From Octopus vulgaris (lineage: Eukaryota): a stretch of DNA of 64,000 bases. Shown here piece by piece: positions 2,122 to 63,993 of the stretch. The position numbers and the translations under genes are program-made. The notes under the pieces are model-generated. The model made no database searches, was not told the DNA's origin, and saw only the letters and a program-made list of their open reading frames with translations. The DNA lies in contig OX597832.1 of NCBI GenBank assembly GCA_951406725.2, forward strand, positions 61,132,001-61,196,000, given 5' to 3'. Each line of letters begins with the position of its first letter. The first letter of the stretch is position 1.

Positions 2122-2253
2122 TATGTATAATTCAAGATACATTAATAAAGATAAGTTTAACACATCAAATTAACGCGTAACATCTTCATTAACGACGCCA
2201 ATGAATTTAGGACCTTTATATCACATATGAGGTGTTCTATATTTTTCAGCTAG

Positions 2254-2594
2254 TAAGGCGACGAGCTGGCAGAAACGTTAGCACGCCGGGAGAAATGCGT
2301 AGCCGTATTTCGTCTGTCATTACGTTGTGAGTTCAAATTCCGCCGAGGTCGACTTTGCCTTTCATCCTTTCGGGGTCGATTAAATAAGTACCAGTTACAC
2401 ACTGAGGTCGATATAATCGACTTAATCCGTTTGTCTGTCCTTGTTTGTCTTCTCTGTGTTCAAATTCCACCGAGGTCGACTTTGCCTTTCATCCTTTCGG
2501 GATCGATAAATACGAGTTGCGTACTAGGGTCGATCTAATCGACTGGCTCCTTCATCCAAAATTTCGGGCCTTATGCCTAGAGTAGAAAAGTATG
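2254..2594 (+). mobile_element. SINE family A (tRNA-like head, central GTCGACTTTGCCTTTCATCCTTTCGGGGTCGAT domain), partially duplicated
   Basis: 12-bp TSD TTTTTCAGCTAG at 2242-2253 and 2595-2606; the central domain resembles the Nin/Deu SINE domain from memory. Confidence 0.9.
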
Positions 2595-2880
2595 TTTTTC
2601 AGCTAGAGTGTAGTTGGGTCTCAAGGGGGTGGTACAAACCTAGCAATATGTGTTTTATAGTGAAAACATAATTTCCATTCAAATGGCAATTACTGGACGA
2701 TTTTCTGTTGGAGTTTGACCGTTTGGAAACGCGACCTATGTCGCAAATAGGCATACGAGTATTGTATAAATTTTATGACTGAAAAATTGACTATATTTTG
2801 TACATATGAGTATGCCAGCCTGCGGGCGCAATAAAATGGGCACACGAGCGCAATTGCGCTCGGGGGTTTCCCCACCCCTA

Positions 2881-3434: not shown

Positions 3435-3830
3435 TAGATTGCTAAAATCGTTTGCTGCAGAAATTTGCTTCAAATGTTTGCTACAATAGTTCAATAAAAG
3501 TGTTTACTACAATGGTTTGATGAAATGGTTGGCTAGAGTAGTTTATTAAAATGGTTTGCTACAGCTATTTATTAAAAGACTTTGCTACAATGGTTTGCTA
3601 CAAATGTTTACTAAGATGGGTTGCTACAGCAGTTTGCTTCAAATGTTTGCTACAATAGTCTGATAAAATGATTTCCTACGATGGTTTGATGTAATGGTTT
3701 AGTAGAGTAGTTTGCTAAAATGGTTTACTACAATGGTTTACTACAATGGTTTACTACAAATGTTTGCTAAGATGGTTTGATATAGCAGTTTGCTTCAAAT
3801 GTTTGCTACAATAATTTGATAAAATTATTA
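3435..3830. repeat. Minisatellite of ~13-14-bp units (AATGGTTTGCTAC-like) with a higher-order period
   Basis: The variant block TTTGCTTCAAATGTTTGCTACAATA recurs near 3464, 3633 and 3789. Confidence 0.85.
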
Positions 3831-3885
3831 AAGAACGTAAAGACAGCTGAAATACTGCTAAGCATTTTGCCAGGCGTGCTAACGT

Positions 3886-4346
3886 CTTATTTCTTTATTG
3901 CTCACAAAGAGCTAAACATAGAGGGGACAAACAAAGACAGACAAACGGATTAAGTCGATTACATTGACCCCAATACGTAACTGGTACTTAATTTATCGAC
4001 CCCGAAAGGATGAAAGGCAAAGTCGACCTCGGCGGAATTTGAACTCAGAACGTAACGGCTGACGAAGCATCGCTAAGCATTTCTCCCGGCGTGTTAACCA
4101 CTCTGCCAGCTCGCCGCCTTTAACAGAAAGTATTCGTTTCTACTCTAGGCACAAGGCCCGAAATTTTGGGGGAGGGGACAGTCGATTGGATCGACCTCAG
4201 TACGCAGCCGGTACTTAATTTATCGACCCCGAAAGGATGAATGGTAAGTCGACCTCGGCGGAATTTGAACTCAGAATGTAAAGAAAGACGAAATACTGCT
4301 AAGCATTTCGCCCGGCGTGCTAACGTTTCTGCCAGAACGCCACCTT
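3886..4346 (-). mobile_element. Two tandem SINE family A copies
   Basis: Two occurrences of ATCGACCCCGAAAGGATG...GTCGACCTCGGCGGAATTTGAACTCAGAA, each with its head. Confidence 0.9.
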
Positions 4347-4364
4347 GCAAATATAAATATTAAA

Positions 4365-5469: not shown

Positions 5470-5624
5470 CAGTTTTATATTTAAAGGAATTATGTACATT
5501 ATTTACATTATTTACATTTGACTGATATTTGTCCTCATCTTTTTTGTTGTTAACACAAATTTTTGGCTGATATACCCTCCAGCCTTCATCAGGTGTCTTG
5601 GGGAAATTTCGAACCTTGGTTCTC
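5470..5624 (-). mobile_element. HHR-bearing tail of the tRNA-HHR element (head missing), inserted within a family B SINE
   Basis: Near-identical to 54812-54960 and 63712-63835; CUGAUGA intact (5586-5592) but GAAACGUU mutated to AAAAAUUU. Confidence 0.75.
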
Positions 5625-5696
5625 AAATAATGTGCTTAAGTTACAGGTATGTAAACCAACCAACACCGGTTGTTAAACGGCTGGCAGAACACACAC

Positions 5697-6259: not shown

Positions 6260-6284
6260 TTAATAGTAATTTGGAGTAGAGAGT

Positions 6285-6595
6285 AAGTCGATTACATTGG
6301 CCCCAGTGCTCAACTGCTACCTATTTTATCTGCTCGCGAAAGGATGAAAGACAAAGTTGATCACAACGGAATTTGAACTCAGAACACAAGGACAGACGAA
6401 ATTCCGCTAAGCATTTCGCCCGGCGTGTTAACGTTCCTGCCAGCACGCCGCCTTATTACTTTCAAATATTCTTTTCTACTCCAGGCACAAGGCCCGAAAT
6501 GTTTGGGGAGCGGGCCAGTCGATTAGATCGACTCCAGTACGCAACTGGTACTTAATTTATCGACCCCGAAAGGATGAAAGGCAAAGTCGACTTAG
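6285..6595 (-). mobile_element. SINE family A copies (degenerate plus partial)
   Basis: Family A central domain present twice. Confidence 0.8.
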
Positions 6596-6984
6596 GCTGA
6601 TTACTTTCTAATATTGGAGCAGAAATGTGATCTCTGTGTTAGTGTCTAAGGGAGATAATTTTTGCCGGTTTAAAAAATGGACTTTATTTACTGCAGAATA
6701 TTAGCGGAATTTTATAAATTTATTGTGGGAATGGGTTAGTCCAGATGAATCAATGCAAAACATATCGATACTTATTTGATCGATCTCACATCGATACATG
6801 ATAAATTTAACGTCAGCAAAATTTGAAATTAAAATTGTGACATATATACAAATCTTCTGTCTATGAAATATGTAGGTATGTATATATGAACATGGGTGTG
6901 TGCGCATACGTATATGTGTCTGCGTATGTATATATATGCATACACACACACACACACACAGATATACATATGTATGTCTATCTC

Positions 6985-9372: not shown

Positions 9373-9561
9373 CCATCATAGGTACGTTGCTATATGGAAG
9401 TTTGATTAATTGAAGTATTTGCTGTGTAGTTGGTGTTAAATGGTGCCTGTAGCTGCTGCATATCTGGTATTAGAGGTGTGTTAAACGTGAATCTACCTAG
9501 GCTTGTTTCGTCAAGATGTGCAATCAACACATTCACAGATAGTGATGGAAGGTGCAGTGAA

Positions 9562-9964
9562 AGGCGGCAAGCTGGCAGGCATGTTAGCACGCCGGGCGAA
9601 ATGCATAGCAGTATTTCATCTGCCGTTACGTTCTGAGTTCAAATTCCACCGAGGTCGACTTGCCTTTCATCCTTTCGGGGTCGATTAAATAAGTACCAGT
9701 TACGCACTGGTGTCGATATAATCGACTTAGTCCGTTTGTCTGTCTTTGTTTGTCCTCTCTGTGTTTAGCCCCTTGTGGGTAGTAAAGAAATAGGTATTTC
9801 GCCCGTCGCTACGTTCTGAGTTCAAATTCTGCCGAGGTCGACTTTGCCTTTCATCCTTTCGGGGTCGATAAATTAAGTACCAGTTACGCACTGGGGTCGA
9901 TGCGGTTGACTTAATCCCTTCGTCTGTCCTTGTCTGTCCCTTCTTGTGGGCAATAAAGAAATAA
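9562..9964 (+). mobile_element. SINE family A dimer (full copy plus 5'-truncated copy)
   Basis: 14-bp TSD GAAGGTGCAGTGAA at 9548-9561 and 9965-9978. Confidence 0.93.
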
Positions 9965-10959
9965 GAAGGTGCAGTGAATCTGATTTTTGTGTTGTAGTGC
10001 TTGACACAAATCTGTCTAAGTTTATTTGGCTGTGATAGATGCAATCTGCATCCACCCAATCTCATCGACGGTCAGCGCAGCATATTAATTGAATCCACAC
10101 GACAAATATAAACCCATCCGCCTCGATATGTTCGGTGGAGATAAAGTACAGCATGTATAGACGTGGGTGGTGGTGGTGGCAGAAGGCGGAACAAAACGAA
10201 TAACATGGTTTTCCGCGAGAACTGCTCTAAACGAAAACTAAATGAACGCAGTCTTGGCTGGCGATGCCAGTTAAATAAGAAGACACAGGAAATTTCATTA
10301 AACGAAAGCAATCAATTTTCAAATTCTAAGATCGAATATAAAATTTGACAGAAAGCCTGAGCGTCCGCTGATCTCTTCGCGTTGAAGTTGATACATTGTC
10401 ATAAGCAATAAAAGAGACACGTTTTGGGTCAGCACTTTAAATGTATTCGGTAGAAGGACGGTAAGATGATCAATAGTTATAACTTCGGCTGACCAAAGTC
10501 GTAACACGGTCAGCGTTTCATAACAATTCCTGAATTAAATGGAAACGGTAATTAGAAAGGAGAATTTAATAAACAATAAATAACTTTTCCTATTACAACT
10601 ATTGTCTGCGCACTTGAAATAGTCTGGCTGGAGATCAAAATATTTCGTCTTTATTAGAAATATGGAATAGCGAGAATAAGGAAGCAGATAAACCCAGCCA
10701 GCATGAGAGACGTAGTCAATTGCCGTCGCCGCCGCCGCCGCCATCTCCACCGCAACTATCTCCACTATCCTCACCACCACCACCACCACCACTACCATCA
10801 TCATCATCACAATCCATCAATGATGATGATAATAATAATAATAATTGCCGTTGGCGTCGCCATTGTTGTTCATGTTTAGTTCACTTGCAGACGTTACAGT
10901 TGTGTTAGAAATTGGTTCTTTATTCTAGCGAAGTTAGAGTTTGTGCAATTCTTGTTGTA

Positions 10960-19210: not shown

Positions 19211-19920
19211 GGGTAGAAATGTCCAAGATCCTGGATGATTCGACATGGCGAAGGACCGATGTGTGGATGCCTTCGGGATCGGTATGGTGGAAAATCCGAA
19301 ACTTGTATTTTTTCTTTTAGAAGCAACTCACAAAAAAGTTAGCACGCCTCCCCAATCACGAAGCGTCTGCCATAACAAAAACTTTCGGAGTCCGAATAAT
19401 GCCAGCCAGAATTAACTATTGAGGACTCATCGGGTGACGCTGAAGAGGAGGTGGTTGACGTAGATAGACGCGACGACAAACGCGACGTGAACCGTAAATT
19501 CAACGAAGTTGGCGTACATGGACATGATGAGCCTGGTGTGGACGTTGGCGTAGCTGGATTTGCCGTTGAACGTGAAACTGATGCAGCTGGACACGAAGAC
19601 CAATGCAACGACCGTATATACAACGAAACTGGTGTAGCTGGAAGCGACTGTACATTCCGTGAAGGACCAGAAGAATTTGTTGAACGTCTACGAATTTGAG
19701 AGGAAGTCACAGTGAAAATGGTGGTGTAACCGTTACTTTTATACTATTATGGTGATGAACTGTTGAACTGAGTTAGAAATATTTACATGAAGCGTCTAAC
19801 AAACCTTGAAATTTGCACGGCGGCCTCTGTTATCGATTCCGTGAGTGATAAAGGATATATATATCAACCGGTACACAAACAGGTACAAAACCACAGCAGA
19901 TAGGACTGCATATATTTTCG

Positions 19921-20168
19921 ATCGACCCCGAAAGGAAGATAGGTAAAGTCGACCTCGGCGGAATTTGAACTCAGAACGTAGCGTAGCCGTATTTCGTCTG
20001 CCGTTACGTTCTGAGTTCAAATTCCGCCGAGGTCGACTTTACCTTTCATCCTTGCGGGGTCGAGAAATTAGGTACCAGTTACGCACTGGGGTCGATGTAA
20101 TCGACTCAATCCGTTTGTCTGTCCTTATTTGTCTCCTGTTTTTAGCCCCTTGTGGGTAGTAAAGAAAT
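19921..20168 (+). mobile_element. SINE family A with an inverted duplicated 5' segment
   Basis: 11-bp TSD ATATATTTTCG at 19910-20 and 20169-79; 19921-19980 is the reverse complement of about 20005-20065. Confidence 0.88.
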
Positions 20169-20270
20169 ATATATTTTCGTCATCTGATTCAAAGCGAGTA
20201 CACGGCGCCCGTAAATTGACGTCAACCGACGTCATAGGGTTAATTTGTTTTGCGTGGCCGATGTAAAATA

Positions 20271-20482
20271 GGGATCTTGTTAAATTTCTCGCAACCTCTT
20301 GAAGTATTTCAAATTTTCACTTGATTATTTTCAATACTATGTAGGTTTGCATACTGATGACAAAAACCACATTCAATTTTTTCTAGAAATTGATAATAAA
20401 ATAGTTACATCAGTGTAAAATATTTGGAAAAATTTGAAAATTTGAAATCCTTGAAGTGGTTGGAAGAAATCTAACACGACCC
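20271..20482. mobile_element. MITE with ~55-bp imperfect TIRs
   Basis: GGGATCTTGTTAAATTTCTCGCAACC...TTTCAAATTTTCA and TGAAAATTTGAAA...GGTTGGAAGAAATCTAACACGACCC; TAAAATA on both flanks. Confidence 0.7.
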
Positions 20483-20629
20483 TAAAATAATAATCACCAT
20501 AAAAATGTAGTGTACCTTCTGTGGTCAGCTATCATAGGTAAGACAATCCTTACTTGATTAAATTAATTTTGAATTTCACCTAAAAGAGTAAAGAAGCAGG
20601 TGTACAGAACAATTACCTTTAATATTTCT

Positions 20630-21043
20630 TATTTCTTTATTGCCCACAAGGGGCTAAACATAGATGGGACAAATAAGGACAGACAAATGGATTAAGTCGA
20701 TTACATCGACCCAGTGCGTAACTGATACTTAATCTATCGACCCCGAACGGATGAAAGGCAAAGTCGACCTCGGCGGAATTTGAACTCAGAACGTAACGGC
20801 AGACAAAATACATATTTCATTACTACCCACAAGGGGCTAAACACAGAGGGGACAAACAAGGATAGACAAATGGATTAAGCCGATTACATCGACCCCAGTG
20901 CGTAACTGGTACTTAATTTATCGACCCCGAAAGGATGAAAGGCAAAGTCGACCTTGGCGGAATTTGAACTCAGAACGTAACGGCAGACGAAATACGGCTA
21001 CGCATTTCGCCCGGCTTGCTAACGTTTCTGCCAGCTCGCCGCC
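20630..21043 (-). mobile_element. SINE family A dimer
   Basis: 11-bp TSD TTAATATTTCT at 20619-29 and 21044-54; same internal junction as 9562-9964. Confidence 0.93.
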
Positions 21044-21089
21044 TTAATATTTCTGCTTTCTGTAAGGTGATGAAATGGCAGAATCGTTA

Positions 21090-28899: not shown

Positions 28900-30734
<1,835 letters not shown>

Positions 30735-30919
30735 TTAACAAAAAATTACTGTTAGCGAATTGGTTACTTGTTTCTTTGGAATTAATGAGAACCCAATACG
30801 TTTCGAAAATCAATTGAGCTTGTTCATCAATGTTTTCAGTCTGCGGAAAAATAGTTAAATCCCCATGTTCGTGTGTCATTAGTTTACGCGCGCACGCTTA
30901 CAGAGCATCATATATACTC

Positions 30920-31131
30920 CTTTCTAGTATAGGCACAAGGCCTGAAATGTGAGGGAGAGGGAAAGTCGATTACATCGACACCAATGCGTGACTAGTATTT
31001 AATTTATCGAGCCCGAAGGGATGAAAGGCAAAGTCGATGTCAGTAGAATTTGAACTCAGAACGTAGCAACGGGCGAAATACCGCTAAGTATTTTGTCCAG
31101 CGAGCTAACGATTCTGCCAGCTCGCCGTCTT
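30920..31131 (-). mobile_element. SINE family A variant with a short tail
   Basis: Family A head and central domain. Confidence 0.8.
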
Positions 31132-41558: not shown

Positions 41559-41643
41559 TTCCTCAGGTGAAGATCGAACTCACGACCTTCAGATTTCGCT
41601 TTTGATTATGAGACTGATGCGCTGCCTACTGCGCTACCGAGGG
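41559..41643 (-). tRNA. tRNA-Met-CAT: Elongator tRNA-Met(CAT) gene or pseudogene with a 12-nt intron (41595-41606)
   Basis: CCCTCGG-TAGCGCAGTAGGCAGCGCA-TCAGT-CTCATA[ATCAAAAGCGAA]A-TCTGA-AGGTC-GTGAGTTCGATCTTCAC-CTGAGGA-A, then TTTT. A C1:A72 mismatch and C61>T suggest it may be defective. Confidence 0.82.
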
Positions 41644-49208: not shown

Positions 49209-49293
49209 TCAGGTCACTGCTTGTGGTTAGATTCGAACTCGGAATCTTGTGGTTAGTAGCCCGCGCTCTTAACCACTACGCCATATAGAACTG
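49209..49293 (-). mobile_element. tRNA-derived head of the tRNA-HHR element; tail absent except an inverted stub
   Basis: Matches 55181-55252; abutted by ATATAGAACTG, the reverse complement of the tail-end consensus CAGTTCTATAT. Confidence 0.7.
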
Positions 49294-49429
49294 TATTAAA
49301 ATACAGCAAATATACACGGTATACACTGAAAAAGAAGGGACATATGCATAGCAAACAAAGGTTAAAAAAAGTGGCGGGGAGGATGATAGAGTTGTGGCCA
49401 TCCTGATACAGTAAGGCCTCTAGGGATAA

Positions 49430-54811: not shown

Positions 54812-55051
54812 TCCAGTTCTTTATTTAAGAGATGAGGAATTATGTACATTATTTACATTATTTACATTCAACGGATATTTGTCCTCATCTTGTTTGTTGT
54901 TAACACAACGTTTCGGTTGATATACCCTCCAGCCTCCATCAGGTGTGTGGGGAAATTTCTCATTCCCAAGGTATTTTTCGATGTTCTTCTTCTTCTTCTT
55001 CTTCTTCTTCTTCTTCTTCTTCTTCTTCTTCTTCTTCTTCTTCTTCTTCTT

Positions 55052-55082
<31 letters not shown>

Positions 55083-55295
55083 TTATTATAATTATCATTA
55101 TTGTTGTTTTGTTGTTATTGTTGTTGTGTTGTTGTTATTGTTGTTATTGTTGTTGTTGTTATTATTATTGTTATTATTGTTCAGGTCACTGCTTGGAATC
55201 GAACTCGGAATCTTGGGATTAGTAGCCCGCGCTCTTACCACTACGCCATATGGCCATATGTAACCACTACGCCATATGTAAATAATGTAAATAAT
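54812..55295 (-). mobile_element. Composite element: tRNA-derived Pol III head, microsatellite linker, minimal hammerhead tail
   Basis: Head 55181-55252 (A box TGGCGTAGTGG, B box GAGTTCGATTCC); linker 54985-55180; HHR 54902-54947; tail to ~54812; inverted tail copy 55276-55295. Confidence 0.8.
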
Positions 55296-63711: not shown

Positions 63712-63860
63712 AACATTTACATTATTTACATTTGACGGATATTTGTCCTCATCTTGTTTGTTGTTAACACAACGTTTCGGCTGATATACCCTCCAGCCTT
63801 CATGTGACTTGGGGAAATTTCGAACCTGGGTTCTCATTCCTAAGTTATTTTTCTATGTTA

Positions 63861-63950
<90 letters not shown>

Positions 63951-63993
63951 AATCTTGGTGTTAGTAGCCCGCGCTCTTAACCACTACACCATA
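63712..63993 (-). mobile_element. Second linked copy of the tRNA-head, (AAT)n, hammerhead element
   Basis: Same order as 54812-55295; the head has lost its B box and the HHR has a 3-nt deletion in CUGAUGA. Confidence 0.78.

What the first reader, a model, noticed from the sequence alone, without database searches (positions are those of the whole stretch)
54812..55295. SINE-like element joining a tRNA Pol III promoter to a Penelope-type hammerhead ribozyme
Seen: on the minus strand a tRNA-derived head (A and B boxes) is joined through a variable (AAT/AAG)n linker to a ~170-bp tail. The same order recurs at 63712-63993, with a tail-only copy at 5470-5624 and a head-only copy at 49209-49293. 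The three tails give the consensus GACAC-CUGAUGA-A-GGCUG-(10 nt)-CAGCC-GAAAC-GUU-GUGUU, a complete minimal type I hammerhead. Each copy has a different core lesion, so the ancestor was intact. In two copies the head's 5' end abuts an inverted piece of the tail (55276-55295; 49283-49293). Established: minimal HHRs with a palindromic stem III and inverted 5' junctions mark Penelope-like elements, and schistosome SM-alpha repeats combine a Pol III promoter with an HHR. Inference: this is a non-autonomous, Pol III-driven, self-cleaving retroelement mobilised by a Penelope-like RT rather than by a LINE. I do not know of a description in this lineage.
Basis: partly seen in the sequence, partly recalled or inferred. 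Interest (0 to 1): 0.85.

Follow-up and report, generated by a model that had tools for sequence, protein, structure and literature searches.

The report
Penelope retrotransposon with tRNA-derived promoter
This repeat is not a separate SINE but the end repeat of a protein-coding Penelope-like jumping gene, which unusually carries a tRNA-like head that likely serves as its promoter, so most of its estimated tens of thousands of copies are short pieces that begin at that head.

Summary
The head-(AAT)n-hammerhead unit is real and linked genome-wide, but it is the terminal repeat (pLTR) of an autonomous Penelope-like element (RT plus C-terminal GIY-YIG-type motif). 29 of 30 best ORF 3' ends run straight into the head. 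The 'tail' encodes the protein's N-terminus. Two complete copies of 2.7-2.8 kb were seen. Hammerhead, inverted junctions and two alternative 3' ends are known PLE features; 46 of 49 head-to-head pairs join one long and one short end. Short and ORF-linked copies share haplotypes and age, so no separate SINE lineage is evident.

The unusual part is the tRNA-Arg-like A/B-box head inside the pLTR. 47 tail-selected arms stop at the head start and only 3 run into the ORF. The sense strand has no T4 run in about 2.55 kb of commonest-letter columns (P about 0.02). None of 25 related PLE ends has A+B boxes before the hammerhead. Likely reading: a PLE whose promoter was replaced by a Pol III-type one. 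Pol III use and self-cleavage are untested; RNA reads look like passive read-through. No description found in nine paper searches.

The parts
55182..55255 (-). tRNA-like head of the pLTR (75 nt)
   Evidence: a natural head copy aligns best to genomic tRNA-Arg(TCT), z 8.1, and Arg(TCG), z 7.5, among 20 tRNAs
55238..55248 (-). A box (Pol III internal promoter motif)
   Evidence: read from sequence; head positions 8-18
55195..55206 (-). B box
   Evidence: read from sequence
54986..55181 (-). (AAT/AAC/AAG)n linker, expanded in this copy (median gap 24 nt in ORF-linked, 46 nt in solo copies)
54814..54985 (-). 'tail' = 3' part of the pLTR, coding the PLE protein's N-terminus; long 3' end (position 185)
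   Evidence: continues directly into the ORF in L161, L184, L192, L200, L202
54961..54963 (-). likely start codon of the PLE ORF; frame broken in this copy by an 11-nt deletion just after it
   Evidence: open frame from this ATG through the hammerhead into the ORF in L188, L197, L198
54902..54947 (-). minimal type I hammerhead: 5-bp stem I, core, unpaired A, stem II, GAAAC-GUU with palindromic ACGU; predicted cut between 54907 and 54906; core damaged in this copy
55261..55278 (-). duplicated head start at the 5' junction
55276..55295 (+). inverted piece of the tail (positions 119-138 of the window tail): remnant of the opposite arm, short 3' end class
63715..63993 (-). second copy: head 6-50 (B box lost), linker, tail 1-148 (short 3' end)
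5470..5625 (-). third copy: 5'-truncated, tail 24-185
49210..49286 (-). fourth copy: head followed by (AAT)n, no tail
49283..49298 (+). inverted end of the tail plus 5 nt that match the start of the ORF continuation
   Evidence: one search compared with L161

Best explanation
The unit is the terminal repeat (pLTR) of an autonomous Penelope-like retrotransposon, and the short copies likely arise when the element's own reverse transcriptase starts inside the 5' repeat of an RNA that begins at the tRNA-like head, which likely acts as a Pol III-type internal promoter. Shown: layout head-linker-tail-ORF-head-linker-tail; tail codes the protein's N-terminus; 5' ends pile up at the head start; paired arms carry one long and one short 3' end. 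From published work on the anole PLE: the protein cuts and extends both target strands and starts reverse transcription at two adjacent internal sites just downstream of the hammerhead, on uncleaved RNA. Inferred: RNA starts 4-7 nt upstream of the head (about 13 nt before the A box); priming at the two sites, one per target strand, gives two cDNAs of at most about 300 nt; these end at the RNA's 5' end and are joined head to head, often through the palindrome GCCC-AC-GGGC there. Priming in the 3' repeat gives the much rarer ORF-bearing copies. Inferred origin: a tRNA-Arg-like SINE head with an (AAT)n end entered the pLTR and took over from the native promoter. Whether Pol III also reads the whole 2.7 kb is the open step (about 0.35).
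For: 29 of 30 best ORF 3'-end hits, the query locus included, have the head 2-17 nt downstream, 26 of 30 also a tail. Complete copies at G000:C1:71381484-71384208 and C6:106067939-106070736. RVT_1 in two natural ORF pieces; a 569-aa open RT-to-C-terminus frame in L333. Tail frame aligns to residues 18-130 of the 847-aa PLE homolog P0004 at mostly 40-50% identity, across the hammerhead. 46 of 49 inverted pairs are long+short, none long+long or short+short. Of 143 arms in 87 tail-selected loci, 47 begin at head position 1-7 and 3 run into the ORF; unpaired copies begin at about -7 to -4. Copies that continue into the ORF also begin there (L181, L184, L200). Same two main haplotypes and 3-4% non-CpG divergence in solo and ORF-linked units. 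T>=4 runs: 0 in about 2.55 kb of commonest-letter columns against 29 A>=4 runs; decayed copies 0.38/kb against 1.57/kb in 22 other RT-element ORFs of this genome with equal T3 density and 2.8/kb in 74 related PLE loci. A+B boxes before the hammerhead: 0 of 25 related PLE ends, 9 of 26 own ends with the same strict patterns.
Against: No direct evidence for Pol III or for any transcript start. RNA reads (two unstranded runs of a related or same species, about 6% read) show no start or end pile-up and 87% run on into unlike flanks, as for copies inside host RNAs. Rfam finds no tRNA in the head. The T4 signal is one evolutionary sample: P 0.018 at the in-genome rate, 0.016 by codon shuffle of L332; no single piece is significant, and L333 has 3 runs against a null of 2.85. 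No complete copy whose 5' end sits exactly at the head start was found: the two complete ones begin upstream of it and inside it; the longest head-started copy runs about 0.94 kb into the ORF. Palindromes at pLTR 5' ends occur in rotifer PLEs without any tRNA head (PMC3846280), so the pile-up could come from the palindrome alone. Related PLE loci are distant (35-49% identity) and not independent.
Confidence: 0.62

Rival explanations
1. Ordinary PLE with a passenger. The tRNA-like head is an old SINE fragment fixed in the pLTR; the element is transcribed by Pol II (own Inr/DPE-type promoter or read-through), and short copies stop at the head because the nascent cDNA folds back or pairs at the palindrome there.
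For: The palindrome is part of the element's own 3' UTR, exactly at the pile-up. Palindromic pLTR 5' ends, inverted pLTRs and solo pLTRs are described in rotifer PLEs (PMC3846280). Drosophila Penelope uses an internal TATA-less promoter like those of LINEs (PMC2377424). An AUG-initiated ORF is easier to translate from capped RNA (established knowledge). RNA reads show no separate small transcript.
Against: Unpaired copies end at the 5' edge of the palindrome, about 13 nt before the A box, where a Pol III start would lie. T4 runs are depleted on the sense strand only. Stop-to-hammerhead distance is about 180-240 nt against mostly 137-186 nt in related PLEs, so the 75-nt head plus linker seems to have replaced part of the native repeat.
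Confidence: 0.22
2. One reading: solo head-tail copies are themselves Pol III source genes, a SINE born from the pLTR and mobilised in trans by the PLE protein.
For: Solo copies outnumber ORF-linked ones about 13 to 1 at round-coordinate sites, keep A and B boxes and have no internal T4. The tail holds at least part of the region the anole PLE protein needs (PMC11167929).
Against: No solo-specific haplotype or younger age class among 75 solo and 42 ORF-linked units. Solo copies end at the RT start sites, whereas the anole protein needs RNA downstream of them (PMC11167929); nearly all pairs used both sites, which points to templates that continue into the ORF (inference).
Confidence: 0.12
3. 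Chance neighbours: an independent SINE with an (AAT)n end is hit repeatedly by a microsatellite-targeting PLE.
For: PLEs prefer AT-rich or microsatellite targets (PMC8557442, PMC11167929); 48 of 143 arms have no detectable head and some follow the (AAT)n end of other elements.
Against: The head is fixed between the ORF stop and the tail; head and tail alleles are linked; no free head with another body among the strong profile hits in 1.06 Mb. Head-less tails are explained by truncation at inverted junctions or by other elements inserted into the linker.
Confidence: 0.02

Closest known systems
Penelope/Poseidon-type PLE, e.g. Poseidon_Ac of the green anole (PMC11167929) and Adineta vaga Pen2a (PMC3846280)
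   Same: Single ORF with RT and C-terminal GIY-YIG-type motif; pLTR overlaps the ORF start; minimal hammerhead at the ORF start; optional 30-40 nt 3' tail from two RT start sites; inverted 5' arm; palindrome at the pLTR 5' end; solo pLTRs.
   Different: A tRNA-like A/B-box head and an (AAT)n tract inside the pLTR; very sharp 5' pile-up at the head; T4-free sense strand. Not mentioned in the passages I saw and absent from 25 related PLE ends.
TRIMp3 elements Cassandra, Helenus, Ajax (PMC10886601)
   Same: Small-RNA-derived Pol III promoter inside a terminal repeat, proposed to come from a SINE insertion into the repeat.
   Different: Those are short non-autonomous LTR elements; that paper argues their autonomous partners must use Pol II and are unlikely to share the repeat. 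Here the autonomous element itself carries the head.
Schistosome SM-alpha / Sj-alpha SINE-like repeats (as reviewed in PMC6765202)
   Same: Pol III promoter followed by a hammerhead.
   Different: Canonical hammerhead, tandem multimers cut into monomers, no ORF. Here a minimal hammerhead lies in coding sequence and copies carry it uncut.
Non-LTR retrozymes (PMC7229834; bioRxiv 10.64898/2026.07.22.740005)
   Same: Non-coding repeats with a type I hammerhead related to pLTRs.
   Different: Defined by head-to-tail tandems; the copies here are mostly solo or head-to-head. A few internally deleted tandems come close.
tRNA-derived SINEs
   Same: tRNA-like head with A and B boxes; the head is related to other SINE heads in this genome (E 3e-6).
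   Different: No LINE-derived 3' end, no simple-repeat 3' tail, target duplications rare (3 of 12), and the sequence is part of an autonomous element.

Membership tests
EN+ Penelope-like element | single ORF with RT | tested here: met
   RVT_1 over cut-off in L112 and L116 pieces; 569-aa open frame in L333; homologs to E 1e-106
EN+ Penelope-like element | C-terminal GIY-YIG endonuclease | tested here: inconclusive
   Motif VYSIPCSCGRLYKGET and later HxxxH/KLKEA motifs read by eye; Pfam GIY-YIG only E 0.23 on homolog P0004, none on L115; no solved relative
EN+ Penelope-like element | pLTRs flanking and overlapping the ORF | tested here: met
EN+ Penelope-like element | minimal hammerhead in the pLTR (unpaired base before stem II, G10.1-C11.1, palindromic stem III) | tested here: met
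   against features in PMC4209133; free position 7 is T in 69% and A in 29% of 291 tails while the non-CpG core positions are 90-98% fixed; Rfam gives no hit; 15 of 136 arms fully intact
EN+ Penelope-like element | optional 30-40 nt tail at one end, inverted 5' arm | tested here: met
   46 of 49 pairs long+short; 48 of 96 loci have an inverted pair, 3 of 10 round-coordinate loci
Penelope/Poseidon clade | [quoted passage not shown] | tested here: inconclusive
   No such motif seen by eye in the linker; no tree with named references was built
tRNA-derived SINE | tRNA-related head with A and B boxes | tested here: met
   (z 8.1 to tRNA-Arg; only 20 tRNAs of 6 amino-acid classes sampled, isotype tentative)
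tRNA-derived SINE | non-autonomous element separate from its partner | tested here: not met
tRNA-derived SINE | LINE-type 3' end, simple-repeat tail, target-site duplication | tested here: not met
   3' ends lie at two internal PLE sites; duplications of 7 nt or more in 3 of 12, one inside a microsatellite
tRNA-derived SINE / TRIMp3 | transcribed by Pol III | not testable with these tools
   indirect only; RNA-seq uninformative
Non-LTR retrozyme / SM-alpha | head-to-tail tandem units, each with a hammerhead, no ORF | tested here: not met
   solo or head-to-head copies dominate; a few tandems with ORF remnants
Hammerhead ribozyme | self-cleavage | not testable with these tools
   stems I and II fold as predicted, -13.0 kcal/mol for a natural copy; the two-molecule minimum-energy fold did not give the swapped stem III dimer

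The most novel reading that the evidence does not exclude
An autonomous, protein-coding retrotransposon transcribed by RNA polymerase III: a PLE captured a tRNA-type internal promoter in its pLTR, lost all T4 terminators from its 2.7-kb sense strand, and so became LINE and SINE in one sequence, with internal RT priming turning its 5' 300 nt into tens of thousands of SINE-like copies.
Probability: 0.33. Interest if true: 0.82.

Novelty: new variant of a known kind. Interest (0 to 1): 0.55.

Why it matters
If the head is the working promoter, this is a case of a SINE promoter taken over by an autonomous retroelement, and possibly of a Pol III transcript that must be translated, which the TRIMp3 paper considers unlikely. 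It also shows how SINE-looking families can arise with no SINE source gene, a trap for repeat annotation. Apart from the promoter question, the strict long+short pairing of inverted arms (46 of 49) is genomic support for the two internal RT start sites found in vitro, and suggests each site is used on one target strand. If the head is only a passenger, this is an ordinary, well-preserved PLE family.

Tried and rejected
ARAGORN on the window: no gene. Rfam on the window and on five loci: no tRNA or hammerhead on the element, only microsatellite noise. Scan of metagenome contigs with P0004 alone: nothing; viral contigs: nothing. Pfam PF26215 is not in the searchable library. PDB sequence search: no significant relative. 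Earlier findings of this scan: none. Sequencing-run search: no RNA holder listed by record; runs under six organism labels hold part of the stretch, only four runs were laid. RNA reads gave no start, end or cut site. A sister PLE family without the head: none among the 30 best protein hits in G000, all 83-90% identical to this family; only the top candidates are scored, so rarer families are not excluded. Target-site duplications: not typical. Idea that L058 was a one-off template switch onto a PLE RNA: rejected. Idea of an intron ending at stem I: no matching joint among the 15 joints listed, 78 not shown, so untested. Stem covariation inside the family was not counted; related PLEs have different stem II sequences around the same core.

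Full report
Observation. The window is G000:C19:61132001-61196000 of a 2.8-Gb, 227-contig assembly; the repeat families look like those of an octopus, which is my recollection and was not tested. The unit is a high-copy family: 23 of the 30 best head hits have a same-strand tail within 600 bp, and 100 stretches of 10 kb at round coordinates hold 14 arms in 10 stretches, about 39,000 arms genome-wide (21,000-66,000). ARAGORN and Rfam do not call the head or the hammerhead.

What it is. One head hit (L058) had the end of a protein-coding frame directly upstream. Searching G000 with that piece, 29 of the 30 fetched hits have the head 2-17 nt downstream and 26 also a tail. Upstream the frame has RT motifs (RVT_1) and ends in a GIY-YIG-type motif read by eye (Pfam support weak). 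At the other end the tail runs without a break into the ORF. Its frame, from an ATG upstream of the hammerhead, aligns with residues 18-130 of an 847-aa homolog, P0004, including the peptide coded by the hammerhead itself. Two complete copies, head-linker-tail-ORF-head-linker-tail, of 2,725 and 2,798 bp were seen. All 30 best PLE protein hits in G000 belong to this family. So the unit is the pLTR of an autonomous Penelope-like element, most likely Penelope/Poseidon type (no tree built).

PLE signatures. 3' ends fall in two groups, about 141-161 and 182-185 of the tail. Of 49 head-to-head pairs (L266 dropped as a duplicate locus, L218 counted twice), 46 join a long and a short end, 3 have a broken arm, none is long+long or short+short. 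This matches the optional 30-40 nt tail of PLEs and the two internal RT start sites of the anole element, which extends both target strands and does not need hammerhead cleavage in vitro (PMC11167929). The hammerhead has the features listed for PLE minimal hammerheads (PMC4209133). Its free position 7 is T in 69% and A in 29% of 291 tails while neighbouring non-CpG core positions are 90-98% fixed, so source genes varied where the ribozyme allows it; related PLEs show the same two forms. Only 15 of 136 arms keep it fully intact, and 5' ends do not gather at the cut site.

Are short copies a separate SINE? Among 75 solo and 42 ORF-linked units the same two main haplotypes dominate and divergence is alike, 3.2% and 3.9% at non-CpG columns (the sets are selected by similarity to different queries). 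Target duplications are rare (3 of 12). Head-less tails come mostly from inverted junctions or from other elements sitting in or at the (AAT)n linker. I found no sign of a separate lineage.

The unusual part. The head aligns best to the genome's tRNA-Arg(TCT) and Arg(TCG) among 20 tRNAs fetched of 34 listed and is related to other SINE heads. Of 143 arms in 87 tail-selected loci, 67 begin in the head (47 at positions 1-7), 48 in the linker, 25 in the tail, 3 in the ORF (L264 and L266 overlap). Unpaired copies begin 4-7 nt upstream of the head, at the edge of a short palindrome that is part of the element's 3' UTR, about 13 nt before the A box. Copies that continue into the ORF begin there too (L181, L184, L200), though L187 and L202 begin further upstream. 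Pol III stops at runs of four or more T (established knowledge). The commonest-letter columns of about 2.55 kb hold 14 T3 runs and no T4 run, against 29 runs of four or more A. Decayed copies have 0.38 T4 runs per kb; 22 ORF pieces of other RT elements in this genome, picked from 100 of 188 candidate ORFs scanned, have 1.57 with equal T3 density; 74 of 80 related PLE loci long enough to score have 2.8, equal to their codon-shuffle null, and none of 28 long ones has zero. Chance of zero is 0.018 at the in-genome rate. Against this: single pieces are not significant, L333 has 3 runs against 2.85 expected, and each complete copy has 2 at unshared places. A+B boxes precede the hammerhead in 0 of 25 related PLE ends (1 of 41 ends had the pair, far downstream) and in 9 of 26 own ends with the same strict patterns. 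RNA-seq gave no support either way: deep unstranded coverage of the pLTR, 87% of reads running into unlike flanks, no start or end pile-up.

Mechanism. Most likely RNA starts just before the head; the PLE protein primes at two sites in the 5' repeat, one on each target strand; the cDNAs reach the RNA's 5' end within 300 nt and join head to head, often through the palindrome. ORF-bearing copies need priming in the 3' repeat and are rare. The start site, Pol III use and the joining step are inferred. The main rival is a passenger head with Pol II transcription and stopping at the palindrome, since palindromic pLTR ends occur in rotifer PLEs (PMC3846280) and Drosophila Penelope has a LINE-like internal promoter (PMC2377424).

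Literature seen. Read in part or whole: PMC11167929 (parts 1-3 of 4, all but the end of the references), PMC4209133 (parts 1-2 of 4), bioRxiv 10.64898/2026.07.22.740005 (parts 1-3 of 5; its supplements are closed). Passages by term search only: PMC8557442, PMC7229834, PMC3846280, PMC2377424, PMC6765202, PMC10886601, PMC6962438, PMC13282606 (also one supplement; it lists Penelope-like and unclassified SINE families, with no occurrence of hammerhead or ribozyme). Nine searches showed no description of a tRNA-derived promoter in a PLE pLTR; Repbase, Dfam and most subscription journals were not searchable, so the family may be catalogued there.

Verdict. Observation confirmed; interpretation partly supported. 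A new variant of a known kind: a PLE with a tRNA-type head in its terminal repeat. Interest 0.55; 0.82 if Pol III transcribes the whole element (probability about one in three).

Noticed in passing
window 41559-41643 (-): Rfam tRNA match at 43 bits with a 14-nt insert in the anticodon arm, not called by ARAGORN; tRNA pseudogene or SINE head.
   Followed up: no
window 2238-2600, 3830-4360, 6265-6600, 9560-9970, 19920-21050, 30490-31130 and others: Another very abundant short repeat family, often in nested or inverted clusters.
   Followed up: no
L032, L048, L040 (downstream of head); L003, L018, L019, L226, L229, L235, L256 and L005, L026, L238 (upstream of tail): The (AAT)n linker is repeatedly occupied by other elements that end in (AAT)n; L040 shows an ORF end that I recall as a restriction-like endonuclease of Dong/R4 type.
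   Followed up: partly
L182, L183, L186, L189, L190, L197, L199, L200, L206, L209, L210: Internally deleted tandems: tail, 120-250 nt of ORF start, then a second pLTR, so two hammerheads lie 300-500 nt apart; several on contig C29. Candidates for dimer cleavage, circles, or extra source genes.
   Followed up: partly
tail positions about 135-152: A 9-bp unit occurs in one or two copies and keeps the reading frame (NNV repeat), consistent with selection on the coded N-terminus.
   Followed up: partly
L309:159-3596 (-): Uninterrupted 1,146-aa LINE ORF with AP endonuclease, RT and zf-RVT.
   Followed up: no
L062:2631-7426 (+): LTR retrotransposon with long open gag-like and pol frames (RT, RNase H, integrase).
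   Followed up: no
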